NCBI GenBank assembly: GCA_034430655.1
Contig: DAOUEC010000120.1
Coordinates: forward strand, 1 to 58,483
Source: Anaerolineae bacterium
GTDB lineage: Bacteria; Chloroflexota; Anaerolineae; B4-G1
Direction of reading: 5' to 3'
DNA length: 58,483 nt
In this document: positions 19,280 to 58,483 of the stretch, one piece after another
How the letters are laid out: every line of letters starts with the position of its first letter
How positions within the stretch are numbered: position 1 is the stretch's first letter
The notes under the pieces: generated by a model
Seen by the model: the letters and a program-made list of their open reading frames with translations, nothing else
Database searches by the model: none
What the model was told of the DNA's origin: nothing
Translations under genes and position numbers: made by a program

Positions 19280-19374
19280 TTCGATGCTTTTGCCTTACCA
19301 GGCGTTTGCCCATAGAGGGCGTGAATAATGTCAGGTAGACACCTGAGAATTCTGAAAGCTATTTGGAGGTTCTT

Positions 19375-29164: not shown

Positions 29165-29182
29165 GACAAACCTCCCGTCAGT

Positions 29183-33876: not shown

Positions 33877-33898
33877 GGTGTTCTCCGGATAAGGCCGT

Positions 33899-34517: not shown

Positions 34518-34548
34518 CGTGTCCCTCCTCCAGCCGCAGCCATATCGG

Positions 34549-34989: not shown

Positions 34990-35030
34990 CCGATGCTCTC
35001 CCCAGAGGTAGGGGCGGGGTGACCCCGCCC

Positions 35031-35531
35031 CTACCCGAATAATAGGAGTTGCTGTGGCATCCGCTCCCCCTCGACCGTCTTGCCATCGGGCTGGATGTGG
35101 AGCACGCGAACACCACGCGCAAGCAACGTCTGAGAAATGAGCAGGTGGCGGTGGCAGCGACGGTGGTCGCCCTCGCTGCACATCACAGCCACCTGTTCGG
35201 TGCGGGCCAGGTCGAGCAACTGGTCAATGCCAGCCTGGTACGTGGGCGTCTGCTCCACGCGCCGGTAGTTGGGCTGCTCCTGTCCAGGGTCATATAGGGC
35301 GGGATCGGATGGACGGCCGCCGAGGGCGTCACCCAGGTAGATATAGGCCACGCCAGCCACCTCCAGGTCGCGGACCAGCACCTCGCGGTTGAACTGCGGC
35401 GTCCAGCGGCTGTAGGGCTGGCTGCGCACGTCCACGACGAGAGTGATCCCGTGGCGACGCAGCAGAGCGATGAATGCTGCCAGGTCGTGGTCGCTGTGGC
35501 CGACAGTGTAAATCAGCGGGGCTTCGGACAT
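35031..35531 (-). CDS. DUF488-family protein (paralog 2)
   Basis: The ORF track starts at 35612. ATG 35531 follows GGAGGA (MSEAPLIYTVGHSDHDLAAFIALLRRHGITLVVDVRSQPYSR...VMCSEGDHRRCHRHLL). Confidence 0.75.
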   Translation of the reverse strand: MSEAPLIYTVGHSDHDLAAFIALLRRHGITLVVDVRSQPYSRWTPQFNREVLVRDLEVAGVAYIYLGDALGGRPSDPALYDPGQEQPNYRRVEQTPTYQAGIDQLLDLARTEQVAVMCSEGDHRRCHRHLLISQTLLARGVRVLHIQPDGKTVEGERMPQQLLLFG

Positions 35532-44033: not shown

Positions 44034-44288
44034 CTACTTGGATGAGGTGAGCTTGATTATCTCCCCTGTTTGATCCATAGTGACGCGCACCGCTCGCATC
44101 AGGCATCCCCCGTCCTGTAACGAGATGCTTTTTTGGAAAGTCAAGACGTAGAGGGTCCCGATGCCTTCCCCGCCTTTGCTGTGAGCCTTTTTCGAGGACA
44201 CAGTCGGCTCGGTGCCAGCCATCTCGGGGAACTTTTCGTGCACGATTTCTTTCGCCTTAGAGACATATTGGGGGTCTAGCTCAGGCAA
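44034..44288 (-). CDS. Small hypothetical protein translationally coupled to ftsZ
   Basis: 84 aa from TTG 44288. A GGAGGAG RBS lies 7 nt upstream, inside the ftsZ 3-prime end, and the gene overlaps ftsZ by 8 nt. Alternative start ATG 44222. No family recognised. Confidence 0.45.
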
Positions 44289-45357
44289 CTCTCAACTCCT
44301 CCAATTCAACTCGCCTATGAGACCGCATAAAAGCAGGCACGGCCAAGTCTTCCCCAAATATCTCTGCCGAAGAAAGGCGCTCTGCCTGTGGCGGGACGGT
44401 CGTCGTCCGCTCCACTCCCACCCCTGTGGCTATCAAAGTGATCCGGGCCCGGCCCTCCATTTTCGGATCGATGACACTGCCGAGAAGGATCTGGGCTTGA
44501 GGCATGGCTGCCTGAGATATGATCTCCATGGCCTGGCTGACCTCTGCCAGAGTGAGGTCGGCTCCTCCCGTGATATTGACCAGGATGTTTTCCATCCTAC
44601 TGGCGGATTCTATGTTGAGAAGTGGATTTCTAAGAGCTGTCCTAGCTGCCTCGATAGCCTTCTCCTCCCCTTCTCCGTGGCCAATTGATATGAGGGCCCC
44701 GCCTGCCCCATTCATAATGGATCTAACGTCTGCAAAGTCAAGATTGATTAAACCAGGCCGTGTGACCAGCTCGGAGATTCCTTGAACTCCCTGGCGAAGC
44801 ACTTCGTCGGCGATGCGGAAAGCGACATCGAGTGAAACCCGCTTATTGACAATTTCGAGCAAGCGATCATTGGGCACGATGATCAGCGTGTCTACTTCTT
44901 CTTTGAGGCGCGTAATCCCCTCTTCAGCAATAGCCAATCGCTTAGTCCCTTCAAAGGAGAAAGGCTTCGTGACCACAGCGATGGTCAGAGCCTTCTCCGC
45001 CCGGGCAATCTGGGCCACAATGGGGGCTGCGCCCGTGCCTGTGCCACCACCCATCCCTGCAGCGATGAATACCATATCAGCCCCGCGCAGGGCTTTGCTA
45101 AGCTGCTCTCGACTTTCGCGGGCGGCTTTAGCTCCCATGGCTGGGTTCCCGCCAGCCCCTAAAGACCTGGTGAGCTTCGCTCCCAGCTGGATCTTGCAAG
45201 GCGCTTCGGAGCGGGCAAGCGCCTGGGTATCACTGTTGGCGGCGATGAAATCAACGCCAGGGATGCCTATTTGAATCATCCGATCGACAGCATTGCTGCC
45301 GGCTCCACCGAGGCCAACCACCTTTATCGTCGCTCCTTTCCAGACCTGTGATTCCAT
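44281..45357 (-). CDS. ftsZ: Cell division GTPase FtsZ (canonical)
   Basis: 358 aa. Contains [17 protein letters not shown], the tubulin signature [22 protein letters not shown] and the conserved C-terminal peptide DLAVPAFMR. Confidence 0.9.
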
Positions 45358-45449
45358 GCTGAAACCTCCCGTCTTAAGAACTGCACGAAGATCGTTGCGT
45401 TCCCAAGGCTCCTTCGTTTCCCCTATCGTAACTACTCACCACGTTCAAG

Positions 45450-45884
45450 TCAAACCCCCAGATGGCTCAGTCTTTCTACTACGATCACTCCCTCTTCAAC
45501 CATCTCAGCCCTAACCTCCTGCCAACGTTGGGGGCTCCATACCTCCAAATGGGTGCACAGGCCAACAACGATGGCCTCATTCTCGATGCCTGCATATTGC
45601 CGCAGATTGTTGGGCAAGGGGATTCGGCCTTGTTGATCTGGGACGCAGCTCAGAGCTCCCGAGAACATGAGGCGGGCGAAAGCCCGAGCATCCCGGCTAG
45701 TGAGAGGCAGGCGACATTGCATTTCCTTTGCAAGCTTTCGCCACTCTTCAGCAGGGTAGATGAACAGGCATCTGTCAATTCCCCGCGTCAAAGTCGATCC
45801 CTCACCGAGTTCAGCACAAAACTCGACGGGAATAGTCAATCTTCCGCTACTATCGGCCACACAACGAAACTCACCTAATAACAT
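45450..45884 (-). CDS. mraZ: Transcriptional regulator MraZ
   Basis: 144 aa. Two SpoVT/AbrB-like halves (DSSGRLTIPVEF and DQQGRIPLPNNLRQYAGI), LFIYPAEEW and LEVWSPQRW. Confidence 0.85.
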   Translation of the reverse strand: MLLGEFRCVADSSGRLTIPVEFCAELGEGSTLTRGIDRCLFIYPAEEWRKLAKEMQCRLPLTSRDARAFARLMFSGALSCVPDQQGRIPLPNNLRQYAGIENEAIVVGLCTHLEVWSPQRWQEVRAEMVEEGVIVVERLSHLGV

Positions 45885-45900: not shown

Positions 45901-45948
45901 CAGGTAGGCTTGTGAGTAGTTGCCAGGTTTCCTTCATGGGCCTACCTG
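45901..45948 (-). other. Stem-loop in the protease/mraZ spacer
   Basis: A 9-bp perfect inverted repeat, CAGGTAGGC (45901-45909) and GCCTACCTG (45940-45948), with a 30-nt loop. One arm covers the protease stop codon. A weak promoter-like TTGATG-16-TAAGAT (minus strand, 45958-45985) lies just upstream. Confidence 0.35.
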
Positions 45949-47681
45949 GACACAGCCATCTTAAGAATATGGCCTTTTTCATCAACAGTTACCTTGACCA
46001 CTTGACAATGCGCGCCATCACCTCTGACAGGAATATCTTTTTCCAAGGTAAAGGCCCAATTTCCCGAGTATCCCTTAGAAACTTCAACAGCTCCGCAGGC
46101 AAGGGCACATCGGTGGCCACAGTTTCCGTTGCAGAACCTCAGCGGGACTGCGCGCACCCGTGCTTGAGCCATATGCGGCAAGCTGGTCTCCATGCGGCCC
46201 TTGACCAATCTTACCAATTCGTCAGGGACGGGTCCCTTCTGGAGGTTGGCCATTTTCTGGCAGATGATAGGAGGACAGAAAGTTTTACCCGAAACCCCCA
46301 TATCTGATCTACCCTGGAGAGCCATGACTGGGAGGGATGGGTCTCCATAGAGCACAAAACTGATGAGCGTTTTTTGATCTTCACCATCCAAGTAGCCCTG
46401 TCGGTCTTGCATTTCTCTGGCCAGATTTGCCTTGGCATACTGTAGGGCCTCACCTACGGCCAGGTGAGCCTGCAACCCTTCCCAGAAGTACCTGCCAATT
46501 AGATCGGCTCCTAGCAGAGGGGGAGCGATGGCGCCGTAGGAGATCTTGGTCGAACCGACCAGGGCCAACGCTTGGGAGGCCAGGAATTGCAAAGCTATGG
46601 AGTTGCCGGTATGCTTTCCCACGATGTTGGCCCCGTAGCAGGCCTCGGTGAAAACTACCGAGTTGGCGTGTTCATCTACGGTCAAGTCCTGGGGGCGCAG
46701 GGCCACGGGGAAGAGGGGATAATTCGCAGGGAACAAGGAATCTCGCTGGCCGTACCAGTTGGCTCCATCCTCGCTGCCATGGAGATTGAAGTAGCTGAAA
46801 TGCGGACGCTCTGCAATCTTGAACTCTTCATAAGTGAGAGGAGGGGAGATTCTCAGTTGGCGATCGTCGCCGATAACCTGAAACACAGCCCGGGCGGCCT
46901 TTCTCCAAATGCTGGCTGAATATCCCAAGCCGTGTCCATTCCGTTGGTCTCGACTGGCTGGCCAGAACGTTCCGAAGATGGTGCTGAATAACCCTCTAGC
47001 CACGCCTGGCTCTAGATGCCCGGCTACAGCTGTTTGGATGAGGGAGTGTAAGAAACCTATCCCTTCTCCTTCTCCGTCAGGCATTCTCCCTACCGCCCTT
47101 TCCGGGACGAGATAGTTGGCGTCACGCGATGCGTAAGGATTGTCTGAGAGAACATCCGTATCCTGATCGTCAATGGGGTTAGGTAGGCGGTGAAAAGGGA
47201 TGATGGGGTCTCCACCGACGATCAGAATGTACCGGATCTCTTGGCCTTGCTCGTTTAGGCGGGCATCCAGGTTATCTATCAGCATCTTGATCTGCCCAGG
47301 ATTGGTCGGATCCACAGGTTGTAGGCTGTATGGGAGCAGAGAAGGCCTGTCATCTACATAGATGATTATGACCTCCAAGTCAGTTTGGCCTTCAATTGCT
47401 TGCTTGAGATTGCGCAAGTCCTTATCCAGTTGATTGAAGCCAAGTTGTCCATATTTTCTCGTCAAACCATCCTTGTTGGAAATGATCAGATACAGGGGAG
47501 CAGCGTCCCTGACCTCAGCCTCAGGTCGTTGTGTGCTTCCCACTGAGAGCGATTCGATCAGACGATTCAGCTCGGCTTGGGCCTCGTCCACTGCCTTTGC
47601 TGCCTGACTCGCAGTACTTGCTGGCCACCGTCCGCTGCCAGAGACCGAGGAAGGCCAAGGGGACTCGTTGAATTCTGCCAT
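45942..47681 (-). CDS. Clan-CD cysteine protease-like protein (caspase/gingipain C25-type His-Cys dyad) with Cys-rich C-terminal region
   Basis: 579 aa. PHFSYFNLHGSEDG (hydrophobic strand plus HG) and NSVVFTEACYGANI (hydrophobic strand plus AC). ILIVGGDPIIPFHRLPNP...SDNPYA resembles Peptidase_C25. GGGAGG RBS. Confidence 0.65.
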   Translation of the reverse strand: MAEFNESPWPSSVSGSGRWPASTASQAAKAVDEAQAELNRLIESLSVGSTQRPEAEVRDAAPLYLIISNKDGLTRKYGQLGFNQLDKDLRNLKQAIEGQTDLEVIIIYVDDRPSLLPYSLQPVDPTNPGQIKMLIDNLDARLNEQGQEIRYILIVGGDPIIPFHRLPNPIDDQDTDVLSDNPYASRDANYLVPERAVGRMPDGEGEGIGFLHSLIQTAVAGHLEPGVARGLFSTIFGTFWPASRDQRNGHGLGYSASIWRKAARAVFQVIGDDRQLRISPPLTYEEFKIAERPHFSYFNLHGSEDGANWYGQRDSLFPANYPLFPVALRPQDLTVDEHANSVVFTEACYGANIVGKHTGNSIALQFLASQALALVGSTKISYGAIAPPLLGADLIGRYFWEGLQAHLAVGEALQYAKANLAREMQDRQGYLDGEDQKTLISFVLYGDPSLPVMALQGRSDMGVSGKTFCPPIICQKMANLQKGPVPDELVRLVKGRMETSLPHMAQARVRAVPLRFCNGNCGHRCALACGAVEVSKGYSGNWAFTLEKDIPVRGDGAHCQVVKVTVDEKGHILKMAVSR

Positions 47682-47702
47682 TTGCCTGGTGAACCTCCCA
47701 CA

Positions 47703-50700
47703 CTAGATTTTCCGCCGTTGCCAGAGAAAGGACACGGCACTTACTGCTGCCCATTGCTTGTAGGCATTGGCATCATTGGGGCGTAGTTCGATAGCCTTGC
47801 GGAACATCGTCACAGCCTCAGGATACCGTTGCAGTTGCTTGTACATTGCGCCAGCGTTGCAATAGTAATCCGCTGTGTGCGAATCCCGCTTGGTGGCTTC
47901 GAGATAGGCATCCAAGGCCACATCATACTGATCCTGCAATTCGTAGGACTTGCCCAGTTCACAGTAAGCCATGGCATTATCGGGCTGGAGCTTGATCATT
48001 TGCCTGAAGTGGGCTATAGCCTTGTCTAAATGCCCGAGTTGCCGCCACAGCCTGCCTATTTGACCATGCTGGGCTGCCTCGTGGGGCGCTACCGTGATAG
48101 CCTGTTCATAGGCCTGCAGGGCTTCATCGTAGCGCTGCTGGGCCTCATATACGTCACCCAGTTGCCCGTAAGCCTCGGTCATTTGGGGTTGTAATTCGAC
48201 TGCCTTCTCCAGATGCTCGGTGGCCTCCTGATACCGAGCCATCCGCTTGTCAATCACCCCCATCTTGTAGTGATAGAAAGCGTTATTCGGATCCAGGACC
48301 AAGGCTCGCTGGTAGGTCGCCAGAGCTTCGGCCCACCGTTTTTCCCTTTCATAGAGGTCGCCCAGGCGTTCATAGGCTGGGGTATGATCACTCTTCAACG
48401 CGATAGCCTCTTTAAACCTCGCCAGGGCCTCATCAACGTCGCCTAACTCAACGGCCACACTGCCCAGGTTGAGCAAGTAAGCGGGCTCCTCGGGAGCAAG
48501 ATCGATAGCACGCTGATAAATCTCTCGTGCCCTACGATGCTGGCCTTGCCGGACGTAGGCATCGCCCAGCTCTGAATACCATCGGGGATTGTCCACTCGT
48601 AATTGGACAACCTTCTCCAAGAGATCGGCAGCCTGTTTATCGTTCCCCATCTTGGCGTAGGCTGAAGCTGCATTATGCAGATATTCAGGCTCCTCGGGCG
48701 CCAATTCTGCAGCACGCAGATACTGTTCCAGGGCCAAGTGAGGCCGCCCCTGTTCTGCATATATGTCGCCCAAGGTGTTGTGCCATGGGACGACGCCCGA
48801 TTTCAGCCCTACAGCCTGCCCCAAGACGACGCTGGCTTCCTGATTCTGCCCTGCCTCATGCAGCATCAGCCCGAGCACATAGTGATACAACGCTTTTGTA
48901 GGATCCAATTGCCTAGCCTTCTCCAGAGCAGCCATGGCTTTCTCTGCTTGCCCTGCTTGCCTATGACTTAGGGCCAATTCATATTGAGTCTCTGCACAAT
49001 CTGGCTCCAAACTCTCCGCCTTACGCAGCTCCCGGATGCTATCCCGATGTTTCCCCATCAATCGGTAGGCTATCCCCAACGCGCGGTGATGAGAGGCTTC
49101 GTAGGGAGCGGCTTCTATGGCCCTCTCAAGTTGCGCGATGGCTTCTGCATGTTGCCCACTTAAGGCGAGGAGTTCCCCTAGCTCTGCATGGGCCTCGGGC
49201 GACTCCTCTCCCAAGGCCATAGCGCTCCGTATGGCAGCGATGGCTCCATCATAATCCTCCGCCAAGGGGGCCTGCTCGGAGATGCCAGCCTGCCTCAGGG
49301 TCCAAGCCTGCTGTCCGATCTTTCGCCAGATAGTGCCCAACCGCAATTGATAGCGCACCTCATCGGGGCTTAACTCGGCGGCTTCTTTGTATTCGGAACA
49401 TGCTTCCCCGTAATGCCCCTGAGCCTCAAGTGTGGCCGCCAATTGCCAGTGGGCTTCTGCATCTGATGGATCCAAGGCCAGGGCTTTGGCCAGGACGTCT
49501 GCGGCCTCGACGTACCGCTCTAGCCTACACAAGACTGCTCCGCAGGCCCGTCGGTAAAGCGATTCGTCCGGCTTCAGGTCGGCCGCCTGGCGATACTCGG
49601 CCAGAGCGTCCTCCCAGTGCCCCTGGGCCTCGAAGATGGTGCCCAGCGTATAGTGAGCCTCAACATCGGTCGGGTTCAAGGAGATGACCTTTCTCAAGAA
49701 TTGTATCGCCTTGTCATCCTCACCTAATTCGTGGTACAGCAAGCCCATGTCGCGACAATGGATAGCCTCCTCCGGCTCCAAGGAGATCGCTTCCTGGAAC
49801 GCTGCCAGGGCATCGTCGTGAAGCCCCAGTTGCTCGCAGGCCTTTCCCAGCAGGTGCTGAGCCTCCGCATCACCTGGCTCCAAAGCCGTCGCTTCTCGCA
49901 GGACACGGGCAGCCTGCTCATATTGGCCCACATGATACAGCATCAGACCAACCTGACGATGATAAACTGCTTGATTGGGGGCCAAAGACGACGCCTGCCC
50001 GTACTCGGTGAGGGCTTCCTCATAGCGTCCCTGTTCCTCGAATATGACGCCCAGTTGATAGTGAGTCTGGGGCTCCTCTGCATCCAAGGCGATGGCCTTC
50101 GTCAGGACGCGGACCGCTCGATCTCCTTGGCCCAGTTCGTGCAGGGCTTCAGCAAGATGCCGGTGGTAGAGAGACCGATCAGGCGCTAGACTAGCCGCTT
50201 CCTCGTATTCGGTCACGGCCTTGGGATGCCGATCCAATTCGTGATAGGTACGGCCTAGTTCGTAGTGCGTTTGGGCATCGTCGGGCTTCAGGGTCAATGC
50301 CTTCCTGAGAACCTCTATCGCCCGGTCATATTCCCCTAGGTGGCGCAATGTGGCCCCTATGTCGCGATGGTAAGCAACCTCGTGAGGGGCCAGGTCGGCC
50401 GCGCGCTGATACTGGCTGAGGGCTTCTGTCAGCCAACCCTTATCGGCGAACGCCCTGGCTAATTCGCCATGTAAAACCGGGTCGCTGGGATCTAAACTGA
50501 TCGCCTCCTCCAAGGCAGCGATGGCCTCGCCCATCTTCCCCATCTGTCTGAATACCAGACCAATCGCGCACTTGTAGGCAGCCTCTTCTGAGGCCAGCCT
50601 GGCAGCCTCTTCATAATGCTCCAAAGCCTCGGTCAAATTGCCTCGTTGCTGATACGATTGACCCAAGTGATAGTGGGCCTCGGCCCAATTCGGCTGTAGC

Positions 50701-53700
50701 GCCAGAGCGCACTGCAGGCCAACGATTGCCTCCTCGTGATTGTCCAATCGTTGACAGGCTCTACCGTAGTCATAGAAAGGGGTTGGACTCTGAGGTGAAA
50801 GCTCCATAGCCCGTCGGAAAGCAGCCACTGCTTCTTGGTCTTGGCCTTGCACTTCAAAGATTGCTCCCAGTTGGTGGTAGGCCATAGCACATTCTTCGTC
50901 CAGCCGGATGGCACTCTTCAGCTCGTCCATGGCTTCACTGTGCTGTCCTGATCGTCGCAGGAGCACTCCCTTGTTAAGATGATACAGAGGTTCCGAGGCG
51001 TTCAATGTTGTGGCCTGACCATACTCCCGCAGGGCTTTCTCGTATTCCTCGTAGTGCTCATAGATATTGCCGACCGCATTGTGCAGGGCCGCATCCTCAG
51101 GGGCTATCTCTAAACCGGCCTTTAGTTCGGCCAGGGCCTCATCGTGTAGCCCCTTCCGCTGGTAGATGGAAGCCGTCCTCCGTCTGTACTCCACCTCTTG
51201 GGGGGCCAATTCGATGGCTTGCCGGTATTGGGCCAGGGCCTCCTCGTGTTTCTCCCCGGCCTCGGCTATCTTTCCCAACTGGGCCCGGATAGCAGCATCG
51301 GCAGGGCTCAGTTCCGAGGCTCGCAATGTCTCGGCTTTGGCCTCATTAAGCCGTCCCAGGCGATATGCGGCCAGGCCGAGTACGGCGTGAAAGGTAGGCT
51401 CTTGAGGATTGAGGCTCACAGCTTGTCGGTAAGCGCCCAGAGCTTTTTCTTGTTTGCCCTGCTGGGCGTATGCCAAGCCCAAATGGTAATGCACCATCGG
51501 GTTGTGAGGATGAAGGCTGCGCGTTGCTTCCAATAAAGCCAAAGCATCCTCGTGGCGACCTAGCCGTCGGCAAATTATGCCTGCTCGGAGCCCATATTTC
51601 ACTACCTTTGGTTCCAATTGAACAGCCTTTCCATAGGCGGTCAAGGCATCCTCATAAGCGCCCAGCTTCTCGTAGATCCTGCCCTGTTGGCCATACGCAT
51701 CTCCGTAGTCAGGCTTCAGTTGGATGGCATGTTGTAGCGTCTCCAGGGCACGATCGTGGTCGCTTAGGCGACCATACGTCGCGCCCAAATTATGATAGTA
51801 GAGAGCCTGGTCGGGCTCCAGGGCACACGCCAGGAGATACTCGTCAAGGGCCTCCTTCATTCGCCCTTGAACCTCATAAATCATCCCCTTCTGGTTATGG
51901 GCTTCTGCGTGGCTAGGGACCAAGGCAATAGCCTCCTCTAGCTCCGCTAAGGCTTCACCATATTCCCCCAAATGATAGAGCGAACATCCTGCGCCGTAGT
52001 GATAATCGGCCCTGTGGGAATCGAGGGCTAACGCTGTTCGGTATCCGCTCAGCGCCTCGACGTGTTCCCCTTGCCAACTTAGAGCTTTGGCCAAGTCACC
52101 CTGCCACTCAGCTTGATTGGGCGAAAGCTCCACCGCGCGGCGCAGGCATCGGATGGTCTCTCCATGCCGTCCTATGCGCTGGTTGGCTAAGCCGAGATGA
52201 TGGTAATAGGCTACGTTGGTCGGCTCAAGCGCCACAGCCTCCTCGTACTCCTGGCAGGCCTCTTTCCAGCGCTCTGCGGCCTCGTAAAGTGTCCCCAACT
52301 CGTCGTGCCAAGGGACTTGGTCGGGTTGCAGAGTTAAGGCGTGCTTTAGATAGGCGATAGATTGCTCATATTGACCTTGCCTGGCTAAGACGACACTGGC
52401 TTCTTGATACAACGAGCCGTTTCTGGGGGCCAGTTTGATGGCCTGTTCGAGCACACCCAAAGCCTCACTATACCAGCGCTGTTGCTGGTAGGAATAGCCG
52501 ATCTCCCGATATATGTCTGCTTGCTCCGGGTTCTGGGCCTGCGCTTGTTTCAGTTTTTCCAATGCCTCCTTGTAGCGTCCCAACTGGTTGAGAGTGACCC
52601 CAGCCTGGTAGAGGTATGCCCCTGCTTTAGGTTGCCGGCTCAAAGCCTGATGAAAAGCCTCAAGGGCATCTTCATAATTACCTTGCCTCTGGAGGGCTAG
52701 ACCCAGCTCACAGTATATCTCAGCACAAAGCCGGTCAGCCTCATGAAGGGCGCTTTGCAACTCGGCTACGGCTTCGCTGCCGCGCTCCAGTTCCCGATGG
52801 ATGACGCCCAAGTTGTAGCGGTGGATGACTTTGCCGGGCTGCCAACCTTCTGCGGAAAGGGCAGTGCTTGGCATCAGATGCCGATAGATAGGCGGCAATA
52901 GAGCATCTGGGGATTTAACGGTCAATGCGTTCAGGGCTATGGTGGCCCCCTCGATCGCCCCCAATTCCTTTAAGGCTATGCCCAATTGATAGACGGTGGT
53001 CTTGGGAAGGTACATCTTCATTAGCCGCCTTACTTGTTCCCACAACCCTTGCTGATCCTCGTTGCTGATCAGACATCGTGCGGCTAAGCGGACCACTTCG
53101 TATCCAGCCTGGGTATCTAGCAGCCTTCGGATCAGACCCAGACGGTCGGATTCCAAGCCATAGAGTTGAAGGAGAGGCCCCTGCCATCTCTCTCGCACGC
53201 TCTGGTCCTGAACGAGTTGGCCTACGTCCAGGTCATCCTTCAACCTTTGCCTGAGCGTCAGAGCGGCAAAGAAGTCTTGCACTAGAGCGTGAAGAAAACT
53301 CACCCGCTTGCCATCCTCCGTCAAGACCAGCAGGCCGCTGCGGAGGGCATCGTCGATCCGCTGGCCGGCTTCGGCCATTATCTCAATGCAACCTCGCCGC
53401 CCTATGTTGTCAGTTCGTGCTTGTTGGAGGGCGAAAGCCAATTCAGCCAACCCGCGGCCCTCGCTCTCCAGCCATTGCTCGACCTGGCCTGTCTCTGCCG
53501 TACCCAAGGCGATCCGTATGCCTTCTTTGATGGCGCGGCTACGGCTCCACCAGGGGCCTTTCCCACCAGAGGGCGCGGCTAAGTTGAGGATCGCTCTAAG
53601 GAAAAGAGGAATGCGCGCCAGGTCCCACAGGGCGCCATCTTTTCTCAGCCCGAGGTTCAGTTCTGCCGATCTTTTTTCGGATGCATATTCCCGCAGGAAT

Positions 53701-54353
53701 TGTCCCATCGAACCGTCGTTCAGCGCGAGGATGTTCAAGGCTGGAATATGACCTAGCCAGGATCGATGTGCAGGCAGGCTTTGGGTGCGGCAAGCAATGA
53801 CCATCCTGGCTGAAGGACATTCCTGGGTGCAAGATGCCAGCCAAGATCTCAACTCCTCCAAGAGGCGGCTATCCGCAACCCTGTCCAGGTTGTCCAGCAG
53901 GAAAAGGGGCGTTTGCTGGTTTAGGATAGATCGCAAGCTCGCATCGCTGGCTGCTGGCTGATGGCACCGAAAGGCCTCCAACAGCAAGTCCCTCACCCCT
54001 TTGTTGTCTTGCAACAGGGATAGATCGACAAGGAAAGGGATCGGGGCTTCCCGTCCTGGCGAAAGGGCTTCCTCGGCACCCTTGTGGGCCAGGCGCTGCA
54101 GCAAGGTGGTCTTGCCTGCCCCCAAATGCCCGTGGAACACCACCCTGTCCAGACCTTTCACTGCTTCCAGGGCATCTTTCTCGTCCTCGCCCGGCTCCGT
54201 CCTTACCTTGAGGGCCACGTAATGCCTGCTGACTTCGGCCAAATGGGGATCATCTCGCATATCTTGCAGGTATTGATACAAAAGCGGCTGATCAAGGGAG
54301 TGGGGAAGACCCGCCGAACTACCCCTGTTTTCTTGCGCCCTATGATCGAACAT
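47703..54353 (-). CDS. STAND NTPase (NACHT-type) fused to about 50 TPR repeats (2216 aa)
   Basis: The ORF track starts at GTG 54368; ATG 54353 follows AGGAGAGGG. Walker A VVFHGHLGAGKTTLL, Walker B PLFLLDNLDRV, MVIACRT. From about residue 520 to the C-terminus there is an almost uninterrupted 34-aa TPR periodicity (..A..Y..A..L.P..A.....LG......G.Y.EA..). Confidence 0.8.
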   Translation of the reverse strand: MFDHRAQENRGSSAGLPHSLDQPLLYQYLQDMRDDPHLAEVSRHYVALKVRTEPGEDEKDALEAVKGLDRVVFHGHLGAGKTTLLQRLAHKGAEEALSPGREAPIPFLVDLSLLQDNKGVRDLLLEAFRCHQPAASDASLRSILNQQTPLFLLDNLDRVADSRLLEELRSWLASCTQECPSARMVIACRTQSLPAHRSWLGHIPALNILALNDGSMGQFLREYASEKRSAELNLGLRKDGALWDLARIPLFLRAILNLAAPSGGKGPWWSRSRAIKEGIRIALGTAETGQVEQWLESEGRGLAELAFALQQARTDNIGRRGCIEIMAEAGQRIDDALRSGLLVLTEDGKRVSFLHALVQDFFAALTLRQRLKDDLDVGQLVQDQSVRERWQGPLLQLYGLESDRLGLIRRLLDTQAGYEVVRLAARCLISNEDQQGLWEQVRRLMKMYLPKTTVYQLGIALKELGAIEGATIALNALTVKSPDALLPPIYRHLMPSTALSAEGWQPGKVIHRYNLGVIHRELERGSEAVAELQSALHEADRLCAEIYCELGLALQRQGNYEDALEAFHQALSRQPKAGAYLYQAGVTLNQLGRYKEALEKLKQAQAQNPEQADIYREIGYSYQQQRWYSEALGVLEQAIKLAPRNGSLYQEASVVLARQGQYEQSIAYLKHALTLQPDQVPWHDELGTLYEAAERWKEACQEYEEAVALEPTNVAYYHHLGLANQRIGRHGETIRCLRRAVELSPNQAEWQGDLAKALSWQGEHVEALSGYRTALALDSHRADYHYGAGCSLYHLGEYGEALAELEEAIALVPSHAEAHNQKGMIYEVQGRMKEALDEYLLACALEPDQALYYHNLGATYGRLSDHDRALETLQHAIQLKPDYGDAYGQQGRIYEKLGAYEDALTAYGKAVQLEPKVVKYGLRAGIICRRLGRHEDALALLEATRSLHPHNPMVHYHLGLAYAQQGKQEKALGAYRQAVSLNPQEPTFHAVLGLAAYRLGRLNEAKAETLRASELSPADAAIRAQLGKIAEAGEKHEEALAQYRQAIELAPQEVEYRRRTASIYQRKGLHDEALAELKAGLEIAPEDAALHNAVGNIYEHYEEYEKALREYGQATTLNASEPLYHLNKGVLLRRSGQHSEAMDELKSAIRLDEECAMAYHQLGAIFEVQGQDQEAVAAFRRAMELSPQSPTPFYDYGRACQRLDNHEEAIVGLQCALALQPNWAEAHYHLGQSYQQRGNLTEALEHYEEAARLASEEAAYKCAIGLVFRQMGKMGEAIAALEEAISLDPSDPVLHGELARAFADKGWLTEALSQYQRAADLAPHEVAYHRDIGATLRHLGEYDRAIEVLRKALTLKPDDAQTHYELGRTYHELDRHPKAVTEYEEAASLAPDRSLYHRHLAEALHELGQGDRAVRVLTKAIALDAEEPQTHYQLGVIFEEQGRYEEALTEYGQASSLAPNQAVYHRQVGLMLYHVGQYEQAARVLREATALEPGDAEAQHLLGKACEQLGLHDDALAAFQEAISLEPEEAIHCRDMGLLYHELGEDDKAIQFLRKVISLNPTDVEAHYTLGTIFEAQGHWEDALAEYRQAADLKPDESLYRRACGAVLCRLERYVEAADVLAKALALDPSDAEAHWQLAATLEAQGHYGEACSEYKEAAELSPDEVRYQLRLGTIWRKIGQQAWTLRQAGISEQAPLAEDYDGAIAAIRSAMALGEESPEAHAELGELLALSGQHAEAIAQLERAIEAAPYEASHHRALGIAYRLMGKHRDSIRELRKAESLEPDCAETQYELALSHRQAGQAEKAMAALEKARQLDPTKALYHYVLGLMLHEAGQNQEASVVLGQAVGLKSGVVPWHNTLGDIYAEQGRPHLALEQYLRAAELAPEEPEYLHNAASAYAKMGNDKQAADLLEKVVQLRVDNPRWYSELGDAYVRQGQHRRAREIYQRAIDLAPEEPAYLLNLGSVAVELGDVDEALARFKEAIALKSDHTPAYERLGDLYEREKRWAEALATYQRALVLDPNNAFYHYKMGVIDKRMARYQEATEHLEKAVELQPQMTEAYGQLGDVYEAQQRYDEALQAYEQAITVAPHEAAQHGQIGRLWRQLGHLDKAIAHFRQMIKLQPDNAMAYCELGKSYELQDQYDVALDAYLEATKRDSHTADYYCNAGAMYKQLQRYPEAVTMFRKAIELRPNDANAYKQWAAVSAVSFLWQRRKI

Positions 54354-54364
54354 TGTCCCTCTCC

Positions 54365-54688
54365 TCACAGCCCAGGAAGGATCCAGAAGGCCACCAAGCA
54401 GAGCATTACCCCAACCAGGCAGAGAAATACCCCAACGCCAACGGACGTGCGGATTAGTTGATCTACGGCCTTGACTAGCCCAGATAAAGCCTCTATTAGA
54501 GGTGCCAGCCCGGCATCAGTGACGGCCTTGCTGCTGACCTTCGCCGACTGGGCCGAAATGCTCTTTAGCACTTGTTGATACTGCCTGGACAAAATAGTCC
54601 AGAGCCCTGCTATGCACGAGCATAAGCCTAGTAAGAACAAACATCCTGACATCGCAATTTGGAGATTCGTGATCATCATGCTTTCCAT
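54365..54688 (-). CDS. Small membrane protein (two TM helices flanking an amphipathic segment)
   Basis: 107 aa. CLFLLGLCSCIAGLWTIL and VGVGVFLCLVGVMLCLVAFWILPGL. Separated by 7 nt from the kinase gene and 11 nt from the NACHT-TPR start. Confidence 0.5.
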   Translation of the reverse strand: MESMMITNLQIAMSGCLFLLGLCSCIAGLWTILSRQYQQVLKSISAQSAKVSSKAVTDAGLAPLIEALSGLVKAVDQLIRTSVGVGVFLCLVGVMLCLVAFWILPGL

Positions 54689-54695: not shown

Positions 54696-57600
54696 TCAGG
54701 TCAAGCGGCTTCCAGAAAAATGTAAAACCTCACTCTCAGGTAACTCGTCCCTGCTCAAGGGTAAACTGATATAGAATGTGCTTCCCTCATGCAACTCACT
54801 ATCTACCCACACTTTCCCCTCGTGCCGTTCGACGATGGACTTGACAATGGCAAGCCCCAAGCCAGTCCCCGATACGTCCGGTGTGTCGCGTCGCCTGATG
54901 CGGTGGAATTTCTCAAACAGCCGCATTTGATCATCTGGCGCAACGCCGATGCCCGTGTCGGCGACGCGGATCACCGCCCGGTCCCCTTCGCCGTCCGTGC
55001 GTACTGATAACCCTACCGTCACGACGCCACCACTGGGAGTGTACTTGATCGCGTTATCCACCAGATTGGTGACCGCTCGGCGTAGCAATGCTGCGTCACC
55101 AGCGACGATCACCGCACTCTCGACTGGCTCCATCCGCAGTGTGATCTCTTTGACGGCCGCCTGGGCTCGCATGCTGTCCATTGCCTCAATCAGAACCCCC
55201 CGCAGGTGGCAGGGTACGCGCTCCAATCCTACGCCGGCCTCAATGCGTCCTAGATCAAGCAAATCGCCAACCAGTTCATTGATTTGTTCAACACCGCATA
55301 AGATATTCTCGACGTACTCGCGCTCCTCGTCGCTGAGACTGTCCACTGTCAGGAGCATGCTCGCATAGCCGCGCATAAACATCAGCGGTGCACGCAAGTC
55401 ATGCGAAACCGTAGATAGGAACTCCGACTTCATCTCATCCAGCTCCTTGAAATAGGTGATGTCGTGCATCACAGCGACACGGCCAATCCGTTCACCGTCA
55501 GCGCCCAAGATCGTCGAGACGTTGACGTACAGCGTCCGACCACTGGGCAGAGAGATCTCCTCGGTCAACGCTTCGTCTGGAGATGAAGTCACCTCAAGGG
55601 CTTGTACCAGCGCAGGGGCTAACCCGGCCCTCTCCATCTTTTGCCCCAAAACGGCATCGGCTGCGATATCAAAGGCCCGTTCAGCAGCCGGGTTGGCCAA
55701 CAGTATTCGATTCTGCTGATCAGTGACCAGAACAGCGTCCGTGGTGCTGTCAAGGATTGCTGCCAGCCGCCGCCGCCCACCCTCGGCGGCTTGGAAAAGG
55801 CGACTATTCTCCATCACCACGGCCGTCTGACCGGCCAGCATGGATAGGAAATCTACCTCCAAGTCATCGAAGTGCCGAACCTCTCCGCACCCAATCCATA
55901 TCACAGCCAATGTCTGGTCTTTCGTACGCACAGGCAGCGCAATGACGGCTTTGATCGGCCCGTTGAGTGTCTCGGGATCGGCCAGTGTTCTGGCCCGAGC
56001 CAGGTTCTCCACGATCACGGGACGTTGCCGGTCATTGGCTGCTGCAGCCAATGACCGATCTAGCGCCTCCAATCCCTCACTCGGCTCTCCCCTTGACATT
56101 ACCATTTGCGGTTCGCCGCCGGCCGTAAGGAGAACAATGCGGGCTACCTGAGCCCTGGTCGCCCTTAACGCCCCCTCAAGAACAAACGGCACTCCCCTGG
56201 ACAACTCCAGCGTCGCCGAGACCGCCTGGCTGATCGCAAGCAGCAGTGAGATGTCCTCCATACGGTCTTTTAACCGTACACGCATGTCCTCAAAAGCATC
56301 CCCTACCCGTCCTACTTCGTCTTCGCCGCTCACTTGCACCGGCTGTGTGAGATCTCCCCCGGCGATGCGATCGGCGGCGCCGGCCAACTGCTTGAGCGGA
56401 CGTGTCACAAAACCGATGACCACGGACATGACGACCACCAATCCGCTCCCGAAAAGAAGCTGAAGGAGAAGCAGCGGGGTGGCAACCTCCTGGGCCTGCT
56501 TCAGCACGACTGCGTAGGGAAGACGGATCACAACTGCCCAGCGGCACCCCTCTACCGGCAAGTAATAGATCCACTGGCGCGTGTTGCGTACGGGATCGAG
56601 ACTCTCATAAGCCTGACCGCGCGGCACTGTGGCGATGCGGGGACGGTCCTCATCCAATCGCCATTCAGTAAGGAGCATGCTGGAATCTGAGTGAGAGACA
56701 ATGCGCCCTTCTGAATCCACTATGAATCCCTCACCCTGGCCGCCAGTCCACTGCAGACTGGTCAGTATGCGGTTGATCATGGGATTGACATCGAGATGGG
56801 TGCGTCCAAGCAGCGCCTTGAAGCGCGTGCCGTTCCCCGTCGGCCCCACCGGTGCCAGAAACGACAAGAGGGGTCCACCTCGATGTGAGCGGTGTGCGGA
56901 ACTGATCTGGGTCGCCCCATGCTCAAGCACTCGCTGCAAAAGCATCTCCTCCTGGGCTGTCAGTTCCGGGTCACCCGTTGGCGCCGGAGGATACATCACC
57001 AGGAGCTGGCCATCCGGGTCAAACAACATCAACTGATCGAAAAAGGCCATAGTTTGGACATCGCTGCGTAGGCGGGCTTCCAACGTGAGCGGATCACCGT
57101 GCCACAACCGCTCATCATTGGCGAACTCCGTCAGCAGCCCCTGGCCGGTGTAGATGAAATAGGGGATCTCTTCGGCGGCGCTGATAGCATCCTGTGTCAT
57201 CTCATTCACCACTTCCAATGTCGCCATACGGAGAGTTGTCACTGTCACAGCGTAAACCAGCACGCAGGTCATAATCAATATCAGAGGCACAAACAGGAAA
57301 AGCAGTCTGCGATTCACGCTGCGGATGTAGGGAGGAGATCGGCGCGCCACGCGGATAGGACGGAGACGTGGGAAGAACAGGTAGAGAGTCTGGACAACAA
57401 TTGCCGCTGCCAGGCTTTCCACCACTGCAGGGCCGAAGTAGGCCTTCGTCAGCGTCACCGCGTAATCGAACCCTGACAAACCCGAAGCGGCCACATGCGC
57501 GAAGACCGAGAGTAGCAACAGTAGCATTGCGAACGGAGTCATCACCATGGCCGCGACGAGAGGCTGGCGTGCGATAAGTGGCAATCTTCCACGGTAGTCT

Positions 57601-58049
57601 TGGCGCAGAAGGAGTCCAATCAAGAAACCAAAGAAGGCGAGATGAAATGGCTCAGCGATACCGCAGATTGTCGTATCGGCACGCAAGATGCCGCTGACCA
57701 ATCCCACCAACAACGCTGGCCCGGCGCCGAGCCACGCGCCAGCAGCAAGAATCGGCAGAGCTCCCAGCAGTGGCACAAGCGGCTGAGGGGGTTTGACAGG
57801 AACATTTGGGGGAGGCAGAAGATTGGGCGCAGAAAAACTCAGCACCAGCAAGTGGTTGACGAGCAGCGGAGCTGCCAGCAAGCCTGCAAACAGGAGAAGA
57901 CGATGCCGGGTTAGTCTGGTGAAATCCCGGCGGAAGCAGATGAGGAGCACCAAGGCCAGCAGTGCATAGAACACCAGGAGGACATACTCCCAGGCCTCCA
58001 GTGCAGGGAAGACCAGCCACGACCACGGCTTCCAAATTACAGATTCCAT
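54696..58049 (-). CDS. Large sensor histidine kinase (multi-TM N-terminus, periplasmic Cache-like domain, HAMP, GAF, PAS, HisKA, HATPase_c)
   Basis: 1117 aa. HAMP RPLKQLAGAADRIAGGDLTQ, H-box EFLSTVSHDLRAPL, N-box VTNLVDNAIKYT, G boxes DTGIGV and GTGLGLAIVKSIVERHEG. No receiver domain or response regulator gene lies in the window. Confidence 0.85.
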   Translation of the reverse strand: MESVIWKPWSWLVFPALEAWEYVLLVFYALLALVLLICFRRDFTRLTRHRLLLFAGLLAAPLLVNHLLVLSFSAPNLLPPPNVPVKPPQPLVPLLGALPILAAGAWLGAGPALLVGLVSGILRADTTICGIAEPFHLAFFGFLIGLLLRQDYRGRLPLIARQPLVAAMVMTPFAMLLLLLSVFAHVAASGLSGFDYAVTLTKAYFGPAVVESLAAAIVVQTLYLFFPRLRPIRVARRSPPYIRSVNRRLLFLFVPLILIMTCVLVYAVTVTTLRMATLEVVNEMTQDAISAAEEIPYFIYTGQGLLTEFANDERLWHGDPLTLEARLRSDVQTMAFFDQLMLFDPDGQLLVMYPPAPTGDPELTAQEEMLLQRVLEHGATQISSAHRSHRGGPLLSFLAPVGPTGNGTRFKALLGRTHLDVNPMINRILTSLQWTGGQGEGFIVDSEGRIVSHSDSSMLLTEWRLDEDRPRIATVPRGQAYESLDPVRNTRQWIYYLPVEGCRWAVVIRLPYAVVLKQAQEVATPLLLLQLLFGSGLVVVMSVVIGFVTRPLKQLAGAADRIAGGDLTQPVQVSGEDEVGRVGDAFEDMRVRLKDRMEDISLLLAISQAVSATLELSRGVPFVLEGALRATRAQVARIVLLTAGGEPQMVMSRGEPSEGLEALDRSLAAAANDRQRPVIVENLARARTLADPETLNGPIKAVIALPVRTKDQTLAVIWIGCGEVRHFDDLEVDFLSMLAGQTAVVMENSRLFQAAEGGRRRLAAILDSTTDAVLVTDQQNRILLANPAAERAFDIAADAVLGQKMERAGLAPALVQALEVTSSPDEALTEEISLPSGRTLYVNVSTILGADGERIGRVAVMHDITYFKELDEMKSEFLSTVSHDLRAPLMFMRGYASMLLTVDSLSDEEREYVENILCGVEQINELVGDLLDLGRIEAGVGLERVPCHLRGVLIEAMDSMRAQAAVKEITLRMEPVESAVIVAGDAALLRRAVTNLVDNAIKYTPSGGVVTVGLSVRTDGEGDRAVIRVADTGIGVAPDDQMRLFEKFHRIRRRDTPDVSGTGLGLAIVKSIVERHEGKVWVDSELHEGSTFYISLPLSRDELPESEVLHFSGSRLT

Positions 58050-58147: not shown

Positions 58148-58483
58148 ACTCTGGATGTTGGCATCGAATTCAGTCCAAGAGACACTGTTAGTCAAGGGTT
58201 TGTCTTTATATGAATCCAGGTTCACTTTACTTGAGTTGCAAGAAACGTGCCAACATCGCGTTGGTTCGGGAGGAAGGGATGCATCCTCCTAAGAAAGTCA
58301 ACATAGAAAGTCAACGTTGGCCACGTGAAAGAACACCGAATCCATGCCTCATAACTTAAGGCCATTTTGGGTTTCCAAGGAGCGGTTTTCCTGCGATTCA
58401 GGGCAAATCTTGCCAGCCAGACCTGAATTTCAGACCAAATCGAGTGTCCAGATTCATCCCGGGCACGAAAACAGGCCGTTTCG

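What the first reader, a model, noticed from the sequence alone, without database searches (positions are those of the whole stretch)
45942..54353. NACHT plus about 50 TPR repeats, adjacent to a clan-CD (caspase/gingipain-fold) protease
The N-terminal 300 aa carry a clean NACHT-type P-loop (GHLGAGKTTL), Walker B (LFLLDNLD) and an IACRT strand. The remaining roughly 1700 aa form an almost uninterrupted 34-aa TPR lattice, often alternating two repeat flavours with an apparent 68-aa super-period. That is unusually long even for STAND proteins. The next gene encodes a protein with HG and AC catalytic-type motifs, each preceded by a hydrophobic strand (YFNLHG, VVFTEAC). This is the hallmark of clan-CD peptidases. 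It also has a Cys-rich tail (CPPIIC, CNGNCGHRCALAC). The arrangement resembles a split sensor-effector NLR/caspase pair.
Basis: partly seen in the sequence, partly recalled or inferred. Interest (0 to 1): 0.7.

Follow-up and report, generated by a model that had tools for sequence, protein, structure and literature searches.

The report
Protease and giant scaffold beside ftsZ
A gingipain-type cysteine protease and a 2,200-residue ATPase/repeat scaffold sit in a gene cluster kept next to the cell-division gene ftsZ in hundreds of Anaerolineae species, so they look like an undescribed division-linked module rather than an immune "NLR/caspase" pair.

Summary
ORF 47703-54353(-) encodes a NACHT NTPase (Pfam 1.6e-15) followed by 48 in-register 34-aa TPRs with a real 68-aa super-period. 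ORF 45942-47681(-) is a cytoplasmic C25 (clan CD) peptidase. It passes the Pfam threshold, His301 and Cys348 are invariant in 146 homologues, and a confident AF2 model matches RgpB/Kgp best.

The immune sensor-effector reading is not supported. The unit [2-TM protein, giant TPR protein, C25 protease, (MraZ), FtsZ, 84-aa protein] is syntenic in at least 555 Chloroflexota species genomes. ftsZ is adjacent in 38 of 40 loci with enough flank, while the genes outside the unit differ. Only 16 of 54 orthologous giants keep the NACHT P-loop. The others retain only the helical part plus TPRs, or TPRs alone.

The 84-aa gene overlapping the ftsZ stop is a paralogue of the protease's C-terminal domain. 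Sigma-54 promoter consensus sites precede the module genes and ftsZ, and sigma-54 activator and rpoN genes lie upstream in many loci.

Best reading: a sigma-54-controlled, ftsZ-linked scaffold/protease module, with a logic like HetF-PatU3. The substrate and the link to division are inferred, not shown. I found no published description.

The parts
58237..58252 (-). Sigma-54 (-24/-12) promoter consensus TGGCACGTTTCTTGCA, ~190 nt upstream of the histidine-kinase start
   Evidence: It is the only zero-mismatch match in the 58-kb window on either strand. The same consensus lies at the equivalent place in related loci.
54696..58049 (-). Membrane sensor histidine kinase (dCache-HAMP-GAF-PAS-HisKA-HATPase); first gene of the apparent operon
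   Evidence: Pfam domains and hydrophobic segments. It is conserved upstream of the module only in the window's clade.
54365..54688 (-). 107-aa protein with two transmembrane helices (residues ~4-35 and ~77-107); no known family
   Evidence: Hydropathy and no Pfam hit. A homologue lies directly upstream of the giant gene in 54 of 54 loci with enough flank.
47703..54353 (-). Giant NACHT-helical-TPR protein (2216 aa from ATG 54353; 2221 aa from GTG 54368)
   Evidence: Translation, Pfam NACHT, Pfam TPR. An orthologous giant abuts the C25 gene in 52 of 54 loci.
53676..54146 (-). NACHT NTPase core. Walker A GHLGAGKT is at 54108-54131, Walker B LFLLDNLD at 53883-53906, followed by the sensor-type motif IACRT.
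   Evidence: Pfam PF05729, E=1.6e-15. The motifs are conserved in all 17 NACHT-bearing orthologues, with one His for the sensor Arg. Coordinates checked.
52863..53723 (-). Post-NTPase helical region (residues ~216-502). It is retained in distant orthologues that have lost the P-loop core.
   Evidence: hhalign of the N-termini of P-loop-less giants against this region: probability 97%, E=1e-10 to 3e-11.
47772..52724 (-). TPR array of 48 repeats of 34 aa (one with a 19-aa insert), alternating two repeat types (68-aa super-period)
   Evidence: Register listing, autocorrelation, the two consensus sequences. No DNA-level tandem repeat. The array is colinear with orthologues; length differences are +34 aa or -272 aa.
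45942..47681 (-). Cytoplasmic C25-family (clan CD) cysteine protease, 579 aa. His301 codon at 46779-46781, Cys348 codon at 46638-46640.
   Evidence: Pfam PF01364 above threshold. H301 and C348 are invariant in 146 sequences. The AF2 model has pLDDT 82.5 and pTM 0.84. Foldseek top hits are RgpB and Kgp. No hydrophobic segment.
45945..46232 (-). C-terminal domain of the protease: a helix, a Cys-rich loop and a three-strand beta meander ending ...KMAVSR-COOH
   Evidence: Secondary structure of the model. Homologous to the 84-aa protein encoded after ftsZ: hhalign probability 98.6%, E=1.4e-15.
45450..45884 (-). mraZ (regulator of the division/cell-wall cluster)
   Evidence: TIGR00242, 117.9 bits against a cut-off of 98; Pfam MraZ.
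44281..45357 (-). ftsZ, with a canonical C-terminal peptide ([10 protein letters not shown])
   Evidence: TIGR00065 equivalog, 409 bits against a cut-off of 295. C-terminal peptide shown.
44034..44288 (-). 84-aa protein gene whose TTG start overlaps the ftsZ stop; a stand-alone paralogue of the protease's C-terminal domain
   Evidence: Present after ftsZ in 54 of 55 loci. 538 homologous clusters, all 71-100 aa in the listed top 120, none with a Pfam domain. Homology to the C25 C-terminus. Start codon checked.

Best explanation
The two genes are the centre of a conserved chromosomal module of Anaerolineae-type Chloroflexota. It comprises a 2-TM protein, the giant TPR protein, the C25 protease, (MraZ), FtsZ and an 84-aa protein. 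It is transcribed from sigma-54 promoters under a dedicated histidine kinase and sigma-54 activator.

Shown here:
- the domain identities;
- the invariant His/Cys pair in a gingipain-like fold;
- the cytoplasmic location of the protease and the scaffold;
- synteny with ftsZ while the outer flanks decay;
- the recurrent sigma-54 sites;
- paralogy between the 84-aa protein and the protease's C-terminal domain;
- loss of the NACHT core in most lineages.

Inferred:
- The ~50-TPR solenoid is a fixed-length scaffold that holds or positions the protease. Most orthologous proteases carry TPRs of their own.
- The scaffold may be tethered to the membrane by the 2-TM protein.
- In this lineage an intact NACHT NTPase adds a nucleotide-dependent switch.
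- The protease cleaves a division-related protein, so that septation is licensed or blocked in response to the kinase signal. The 84-aa paralogue or another FtsZ partner is the leading substrate candidate.
- The logic resembles HetF cleaving PatU3 at the Anabaena divisome.
For: Domains.

Catalytic pair and fold: H301 and C348 are invariant in 146 sequences. The AF2 model has pLDDT 82.5. Its best PDB matches are RgpB at E=4e-13 and Kgp, followed by other clan-CD proteases (SAVED-CHAT, separase, Csx29). Each catalytic residue follows a beta strand.

Synteny:
- at least 555 species genomes encode a relative;
- the small 2-TM gene is present in 54 of 54 loci, and an intact giant in 52 of 54;
- ftsZ is adjacent in 38 of 40 loci, downstream in 33 and upstream in 5;
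- the 84-aa gene follows ftsZ in 54 of 55 loci;
- genes outside the unit differ between clades.

Sigma-54:
- one exact site in the window;
- 51 gene-strand sites against 2 opposite-strand sites in 80 loci, placed before the kinase, the 2-TM gene, C25, the gene preceding ftsZ, or ftsZ itself;
- an activator gene upstream in 24 of 48 loci and rpoN in at least 12 of 48.

TPR-protease link: most family members are TPR-C25 fusions.

Scaffold constraint: the arrays are colinear, and length changes come only in whole repeats, +34 or -272 aa.

Paralogy of the 84-aa protein and the C25 C-terminus.

Precedent for a clan-CD protease at a divisome: PMC8406250 and PMC9457339.
Against: No experiment or expression data links the module to division; the link rests on gene order and shared promoter motifs. 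Two of 40 loci with adequate flanks lack an adjacent ftsZ (L073, L077).

I could not verify that this ftsZ is the only copy in the genome. The substrate is unknown.

Sequence profiles do not reach gingipains in the PDB, so family membership rests on the Pfam hit and the fold match.

The sigma-54 sites are consensus matches, not mapped transcription starts. In the window, ftsZ has no sigma-54 site of its own; a sigma-70-like hexamer pair lies in the mraZ-ftsZ gap.
Confidence: 0.5

Rival explanations
1. The module is a sigma-54-regulated housekeeping or developmental proteolysis unit whose job is not division itself. Examples would be stress or dormancy responses, filament fragmentation, envelope remodelling or protein quality control. 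Its position next to ftsZ would then reflect only shared regulation or a frozen gene order.
For: The same conservation and sigma-54 data fit any lineage-wide regulated function. Glycosidase-looking proteins of unknown family also travel with the cluster: a ~450-aa gene before ftsZ in distant clades and a 1425-aa gene after it here. In the window's clade the sigma-54 site sits before the kinase, not before ftsZ.
Against: ftsZ stays adjacent even where the order is permuted, with ftsZ and the 84-aa gene moved upstream of the 2-TM gene in 5 loci. The 84-aa paralogue of the protease's C-terminal domain overlaps the ftsZ stop codon. In three clade representatives the sigma-54 site lies directly before ftsZ.
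Confidence: 0.25
2. One reading: a split NLR/caspase-like immune or programmed-cell-death pair. The NACHT-TPR protein senses an invader, oligomerises and activates the neighbouring clan-CD protease to kill or arrest the cell.
For: The architecture is of that type. It has a NACHT NTPase with intact Walker A/B, a repeat 'sensor' and a caspase-fold protease with an intact dyad. STAND plus caspase-like conflict systems are enriched in multicellular bacteria, including Chloroflexi, and rarely include FtsZ/tubulin-like effectors (PMC7159879).
Against: The module is present at one conserved locus in at least 555 species genomes, with flanks typical of a core chromosome. The P-loop core is absent in 38 of 54 orthologues. 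The TPR array is position-by-position conserved rather than diversifying. PADLOC gives no hit. The adjacent FtsZ is a full equivalog with its C-terminal peptide and lies next to mraZ.
Confidence: 0.08
3. The C25-like protein is not a working protease. It would be a structural or binding protein, or a transpeptidase-like enzyme, that merely keeps the fold.
For: No sequence-level match to any solved gingipain. The His-to-Cys spacing is 47 residues against 33 in RgpB. The region around His301 has only moderate model confidence, about 70.
Against: His301, Gly302, Glu346, Ala347, Cys348 and several acidic residues are invariant across 146 sequences down to 36% identity. That pattern is what purifying selection on catalysis would give. 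The Cys-to-GDP-motif spacing (99 residues) matches RgpB (97).
Confidence: 0.07

Closest known systems
Gingipains RgpB/Kgp (MEROPS family C25, clan CD) of Porphyromonas gingivalis
   Same: They share a Pfam family hit, a two-subdomain catalytic fold (best Foldseek matches) and a His then Cys dyad with each residue after a beta strand. They also share the GD..IP...SD..Y...GR and GDPSL motifs.
   Different: Gingipains are secreted virulence proteases with a signal peptide, a pro-domain, an Ig-like domain and a type IX secretion C-terminal domain. This protein has no hydrophobic segment. It has an N-terminal coiled coil (TPRs in most relatives) and an unrelated Cys-rich/beta-meander C-terminal domain. 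Sequence similarity is too low for profile searches against the PDB.
HetF-PatU3 of Anabaena PCC 7120 (a clan-CD protease that is a divisome component and cleaves a small division inhibitor)
   Same: A caspase-fold cysteine protease tied to FtsZ-dependent division in a filamentous multicellular bacterium, with a small protein partner (PMC8406250, PMC9457339). This is the closest match in proposed logic.
   Different: HetF belongs to a different clan-CD family and is reported as a divisome component. It has no giant TPR/NACHT partner and no known sigma-54 control. Here the division link is inferred from gene order only.
TPR-CHAT (Csx29) of type III-E CRISPR 'Craspase', and SAVED-CHAT
   Same: TPR repeats are coupled to a clan-CD protease whose activity is gated by a partner. 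Both appear among the structural matches. Most members of this family are TPR-protease fusions.
   Different: There is no CRISPR or cyclic-nucleotide sensor context. The protease family differs (C25, not CHAT). The distribution is core-genome and vertical rather than that of a defence island.
Separase-securin (eukaryotic clan-CD protease with a large helical/TPR-like regulatory region and a pseudo-substrate inhibitor)
   Same: A caspase-fold protease coupled to a very large helical-repeat region and acting in the cell-division cycle. Human separase is among the structural matches.
   Different: This is a resemblance only. Scaffold and protease are separate polypeptides here, there is no evidence of a pseudo-substrate inhibitor, and the substrates are unrelated.
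Bacterial and eukaryotic NACHT/STAND proteins (bacterial NACHT and Avs anti-phage proteins; NLRP and NAIP)
   Same: A NACHT core with Walker A/B and a sensor-type Arg, a following helical region and a C-terminal repeat array. The best PDB sequence matches are NLRP9 and NAIP, though weak.
   Different: It is not patchy or associated with a defence island. The NTPase core is dispensable across orthologues. The repeat array is conserved repeat by repeat rather than variable.

Membership tests
Peptidase family C25 (clan CD) | Match to the family profile above its curated threshold | tested here: met
   PF01364, E=5e-13, 49.5 bits against a cut-off of 23. Only residues 337-451 align, to profile positions 258-373 of 374. 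NCBIfam gives no hit. Some homologues are named 'C25 family cysteine peptidase' by NCBI.
Peptidase family C25 (clan CD) | Catalytic His then Cys, each at the end of a hydrophobic beta strand (H-G ... A-C) | tested here: met
   H301-G302 follows strand 295-299, and A347-C348 follows strand 342-345 in the model. Both are invariant in 146 sequences.
Peptidase family C25 (clan CD) | Caspase/gingipain fold | tested here: met
   Foldseek against the PDB: RgpB 1cvr E=4.1e-13 (TM 0.45/0.59), 4ief, Kgp 4rbm, then other clan-CD proteases. Model pLDDT 82.5 and pTM 0.84.
Peptidase family C25 (clan CD) | His and Cys side chains within catalytic distance (dyad geometry) | not testable with these tools
   Model coordinates are not returned, and pLDDT near His301 is only about 70.
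Peptidase family C25 (clan CD) | Secreted enzyme with signal peptide, pro-domain and secretion C-terminal domain (typical of gingipains and PorU) | tested here: not met
   No hydrophobic segment anywhere. The N-terminus is a coiled coil, and the C-terminal domain belongs to no known family.
Peptidase family C25 (clan CD) | Proteolytic activity | not testable with these tools
   Needs purified protein and the C348A/H301A controls.
NACHT / STAND NTPase | Family profile match plus Walker A, Walker B and a sensor-type Arg | tested here: met
   PF05729, E=1.6e-15, 57.7 bits against a cut-off of 26.7. GHLGAGKT, LFLLDNLD and IACRT are conserved in the 17 NACHT-bearing orthologues.
NACHT / STAND NTPase | Helical/winged-helix region followed by a repeat array | tested here: met
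   The helical region, residues ~216-502, is conserved even in P-loop-less orthologues. It is followed by 48 TPRs.
Tetratricopeptide repeat proteins | 34-residue helix-turn-helix repeats matching TPR profiles | tested here: met
   TPR_2 E=2.6e-224 with 28 stretches, TPR_11 with 32 stretches. Autocorrelation peaks at multiples of 34.
Anti-phage NLR-like/STAND defence systems (bacterial NACHT, Avs) | Match to known defence-system profiles | tested here: not met
   PADLOC gave nothing significant for the protease, the NACHT region, the 2-TM protein or the 1425-aa neighbour. The best hit was VakA at E=0.017.
Anti-phage NLR-like/STAND defence systems (bacterial NACHT, Avs) | Patchy, mobile distribution in variable genome islands | tested here: not met
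   The locus is the same, next to ftsZ, in at least 555 species genomes. The rest of the window is ordinary chromosomal metabolism.
Anti-phage NLR-like/STAND defence systems (bacterial NACHT, Avs) | The NTPase switch is indispensable | tested here: not met
   Only 16 of 54 orthologous giants keep a P-loop. The others start at the helical region or at the TPRs.
Divisome-associated clan-CD protease (HetF type) | Clan-CD protease genetically or physically tied to FtsZ-dependent division | tested here: inconclusive
   Gene-order linkage to ftsZ is strong. Localisation, interaction and phenotype were not testable. The family differs from HetF's.
Sigma-54-dependent operon | A -24 GG / -12 GC promoter consensus upstream, with an enhancer-binding activator encoded nearby | tested here: inconclusive
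   An exact TGGCAC-N5-TTGCA lies at 58237-58252. The activator gene lies just upstream in related loci, but the window ends before that position. No transcription start is mapped.

The most novel reading that the evidence does not exclude
Anaerolineae-type filamentous Chloroflexota use a dedicated proteolytic checkpoint on FtsZ-dependent septation. In this reading a ~50-repeat TPR solenoid of fixed length acts as scaffold or ruler. It is gated by a NACHT ATPase in some lineages and tethered by a 2-TM protein. It positions a cytoplasmic gingipain-family protease at the division machinery through a small domain that the protease shares with an FtsZ-coupled 84-aa protein. The protease then cleaves an inhibitor or partner of FtsZ, under a sigma-54 two-component signal. 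That would make it a bacterial analogue of separase/securin or HetF/PatU3 built from different parts.
Probability: 0.2. Interest if true: 0.85.

Novelty: new variant of a known kind. Interest (0 to 1): 0.62.

Why it matters
Cell division in Chloroflexota is poorly understood, and Anaerolineae are abundant, mostly uncultured filamentous bacteria in sediments, digesters and sludge.

A gene set kept beside ftsZ across several Chloroflexota lineages (Anaerolineales, Thermoflexales, Ardenticatenales, Ca. Roseilinea, Ca. Aquidulcis) gives concrete, testable candidates for lineage-specific division control and for sigma-54-dependent regulation of ftsZ. The set comprises a giant repeat scaffold, a caspase-fold protease, a membrane anchor and a small FtsZ-coupled protein.

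It also shows a STAND/NACHT-plus-caspase-fold architecture, normally read as immunity, embedded in a core cellular process. The NTPase has been lost repeatedly in that setting. That is a useful caution for domain-based defence-system prediction.

Tried and rejected
- Sequence and profile searches of the protease family against PDB sequences found no gingipain. With the larger alignment the hits were only TPR proteins, from the N-terminal extension of the long forms.
- Aligning the family to RgpB was not significant. The RgpB sequence came from my memory and was verified against 1cvr/4ief. The hhalign run mis-placed the Cys region, and hmmsearch found only the GDPSL anchor. I therefore rely on Pfam, spacing and fold.
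- The first AF2 model, from 24 sequences, was poor around the active site (pLDDT 62.6). It was replaced by the 146-sequence model.
- PADLOC gave no defence hit.
- Tandem-repeat search on the TPR gene found no DNA-level repeats, so this is not a recent expansion.
- The generic promoter/terminator scan was uninformative.
- Pfam and PDB profile searches of the 84-aa family found no known family. Its resemblance to PepSY domains is by eye only and unverified.
- A test of whether the ~450-aa gene before ftsZ in distant clades is related to the 1425-aa neighbour here was not significant (hhalign probability 9%).
- Literature searches for any description of this cluster found none.
- No MraZ-box pattern was evident upstream of mraZ.

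Full report
**1. The observation**

All genes in 44-58 kb lie on the minus strand. The long ORF is 47703-54368 from a GTG that overlaps the stop of the upstream ORF.

The long ORF contains GHLGAGKTTL, LFLLDNLD and IACRT. Its first 540 residues match Pfam NACHT at E=1.6e-15, 57.7 bits against a cut-off of 26.7. The rest matches every TPR profile, with E down to 1e-224.

Laying the protein out in rows of 34 shows the repeat structure (GTG numbering). There are 33 repeats with no indel from residue 549 to 1670. One repeat carries a 19-aa insert. Fourteen more run to residue 2199, followed by a 22-aa cap. That makes 48 clear repeats.

The 68-aa super-period is real. BLOSUM autocorrelation is 1.19 at lag 68 against 0.72 at lag 34. 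Mean repeat identity is 33% for i,i+2 against 25% for i,i+1, and the two types have distinct consensus sequences. There is no DNA-level tandem repeat, so the array is old.

The next ORF, 45942-47681, contains YFNLHG, VVFTEAC, CPPIIC and CNGNCGHRCALAC. It passes the Pfam Peptidase_C25 threshold at E=5e-13.

**2. The protease**

- His301 and Cys348 are invariant in 24 and then in 146 homologues, down to 36% identity. So are G302, E346, A347 and several acidic residues.
- A first AF2 model was poor. With 146 sequences the model reached pLDDT 82.5 and pTM 0.84.
- In that model His301 follows strand 295-299 and Cys348 follows strand 342-345.
- Foldseek against the PDB returns RgpB (1cvr, E=4e-13), 4ief and Kgp first. 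Other clan-CD proteases follow: SAVED-CHAT, human separase and Csx29.
- Sequence profiles do not reach gingipains. Direct alignment to RgpB is not significant apart from shared motifs and the GDPSL anchor.
- The protein has no hydrophobic segment, so unlike gingipains it is cytoplasmic.
- The family is large: 773 clusters at 50% identity with E<1e-30.
- Most members are ~880-930 aa and carry a genuine N-terminal TPR extension. The window's 579-aa form is a minority.
- NCBI already names some members 'C25 family cysteine peptidase'.

**3. Context changes the picture**

Contigs carrying homologues at 43-63% identity show the same order. It runs: small ~105-aa gene, giant gene of 1760-2300 aa, C25, (MraZ), FtsZ, small ~84-aa gene.

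A scan of one genome per species found at least 555 genomes with a relative. All of the best 80 are Chloroflexota: Anaerolineales, Thermoflexales, Ardenticatenales, Ca. Roseilinea and Ca. Aquidulcis.

Labelling the ORFs of those 80 loci with the window's proteins gave these counts:

| Feature | Loci with feature / loci with enough flank |
|---|---|
| 2-TM gene upstream of the giant | 54 / 54 |
| Intact giant gene abutting C25 | 52 / 54 (the two exceptions are frameshifted) |
| 84-aa gene after ftsZ | 54 / 55 |
| ftsZ adjacent | 38 / 40 (33 downstream, 5 immediately upstream in a permuted order) |

Genes outside this unit differ between clades. The kinase and the 1425-aa protein occur only in the window's clade; elsewhere the flanks hold SpoIID, NifU and other genes.

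The FtsZ is a full equivalog, at 409 bits against a cut-off of 295. It has the canonical C-terminal peptide and lies beside mraZ. The rest of the window is ordinary chromosomal metabolism.

**4. The NACHT core is optional**

Only 16 of 54 orthologous giants have a P-loop. Close relatives such as L004 and L022 begin exactly where the window's TPR region begins.

Distant giants begin with a helical region that is homologous to window residues ~216-502, the part after the P-loop core. The hhalign probability is 97%, with E about 1e-10.

NACHT-bearing giants occur in both deep branches and share Walker A, Walker B and the sensor Arg. The simplest history is an ancestral NACHT with repeated loss. 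The NTPase is probably active here, but it is not part of the conserved core.

**5. The TPR array is constrained repeat by repeat**

Orthologues at 58-77% identity align over all ~1,700 residues with no indel of 5 aa or more. Those near 50% identity differ by a single 5-aa insert. Larger differences are +34 aa (one repeat) or -272 aa (eight repeats). This pattern fits a scaffold of defined geometry, not a diversifying sensor.

**6. Two further links to ftsZ**

- The 84-aa gene starts at a TTG that overlaps the ftsZ stop. It is homologous over its whole length to the last ~95 residues of the protease: a helix, then a beta meander ending [ST]S[KR]-COOH. The hhalign probability is 98.6%, E=1.4e-15. 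The family has 538 clusters. All of the 120 best hits listed are 71-100 aa with no Pfam domain, and there is no PDB relative.
- The only exact sigma-54 consensus in the window, TGGCACGTTTCTTGCA, lies ~190 nt upstream of the kinase gene. In the 80 loci the consensus occurs 51 times on the gene strand and twice on the other. It lies just upstream of the kinase, the 2-TM gene, C25, the ~450-aa gene preceding ftsZ, or ftsZ itself.
- A sigma-54 activator response regulator is encoded upstream in 24 of 48 loci, and rpoN in at least 12.

**7. Interpretation**

The immune NLR/caspase reading does not fit the distribution, the dispensable NTPase, the conserved repeats, the lack of PADLOC hits or the neighbours.

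The best-supported reading is a sigma-54-controlled, ftsZ-linked module. In it a fixed-length TPR scaffold partners a cytoplasmic C25 protease, and here the scaffold carries a NACHT switch. The shared C-terminal domain suggests that the protease and the FtsZ-coupled 84-aa protein bind the same partner or each other.

The nearest functional precedent is HetF, a clan-CD divisome protease of Anabaena that cleaves the small inhibitor PatU3 (PMC8406250, PMC9457339). The substrate, the localisation and any effect on division are all inferred.

**8. Novelty**

Searches of the held literature found no description of this cluster. The main survey of STAND/caspase conflict systems in multicellular bacteria does not mention C25 or this arrangement. 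The parts are new members of known families. The conserved association with ftsZ and sigma-54 appears undescribed.

Noticed in passing
window 58237-58252 (-); related loci L008-L090: There is an exact sigma-54 promoter consensus upstream of the kinase gene. The same consensus recurs on the gene strand in front of module genes and of ftsZ in related genomes (51 gene-strand sites against 2 opposite). rpoN and a sigma-54 activator are often encoded just upstream. This suggests sigma-54-dependent control of ftsZ in this lineage.
   Followed up: partly
window 44034-44288 (-) and 45945-46232 (-): The 84-aa ORF overlapping the ftsZ stop is a stand-alone paralogue of the protease's C-terminal domain. 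Both usually end in [ST]S[KR]. It has no known family. By eye it looks PepSY-like (a helix plus a beta meander with a 'D..G.I.K' turn), which is untested.
   Followed up: partly
window 39734-44011 (-): A 1425-aa cytoplasmic protein with no family assignment is conserved right after the 84-aa gene in the window's clade. It contains an ~840-nt internal tandem duplication at 88-95% DNA identity (40653-41347 against 41490-42190). It also has 'NEP'-type motifs reminiscent of clan-A glycosidases.
   Followed up: partly
L006 12652-14082, L008 12741-14099 and ~20 other loci: In the distant clades a ~450-aa protein of unknown family sits between C25 and ftsZ in place of mraZ, often behind its own sigma-54 site. 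It is conserved, has no Pfam hit, and shows glycosidase-like motifs by eye. Some loci add a 176-aa protein with a weak DivIVA-like hit (E=0.13).
   Followed up: partly
window 45425-45453 (-): A sigma-70-like hexamer pair (TTGACT, 17 nt, TACGAT) lies in the mraZ-ftsZ gap. ftsZ may therefore also have its own promoter in this genome.
   Followed up: no
window 26914-35181: A group of DNA-related genes lies here: a NERD-UvrD-like helicase, a 1075-aa RecQ-type helicase with an N-terminal TPR and an HRDC domain, a dual-OB (DuOB) protein and a DUF488 protein. It may be a repair or defence-type cluster.
   Followed up: no
window 12001-20000: G+C drops to 0.51-0.57, against ~0.60-0.69 around it, over a block of sugar-PTS, aldolase, URO-D-like, aminotransferase and B12-binding genes. 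A XerC/integrase-type recombinase gene lies at 4478-5389.
   Followed up: no
L023, L033, L038 against window 47772-52724: Three orthologous giants lack exactly 272 residues (8 TPRs) in the middle of the array, and three others have one extra 34-aa repeat. Length therefore changes only in whole repeats.
   Followed up: yes
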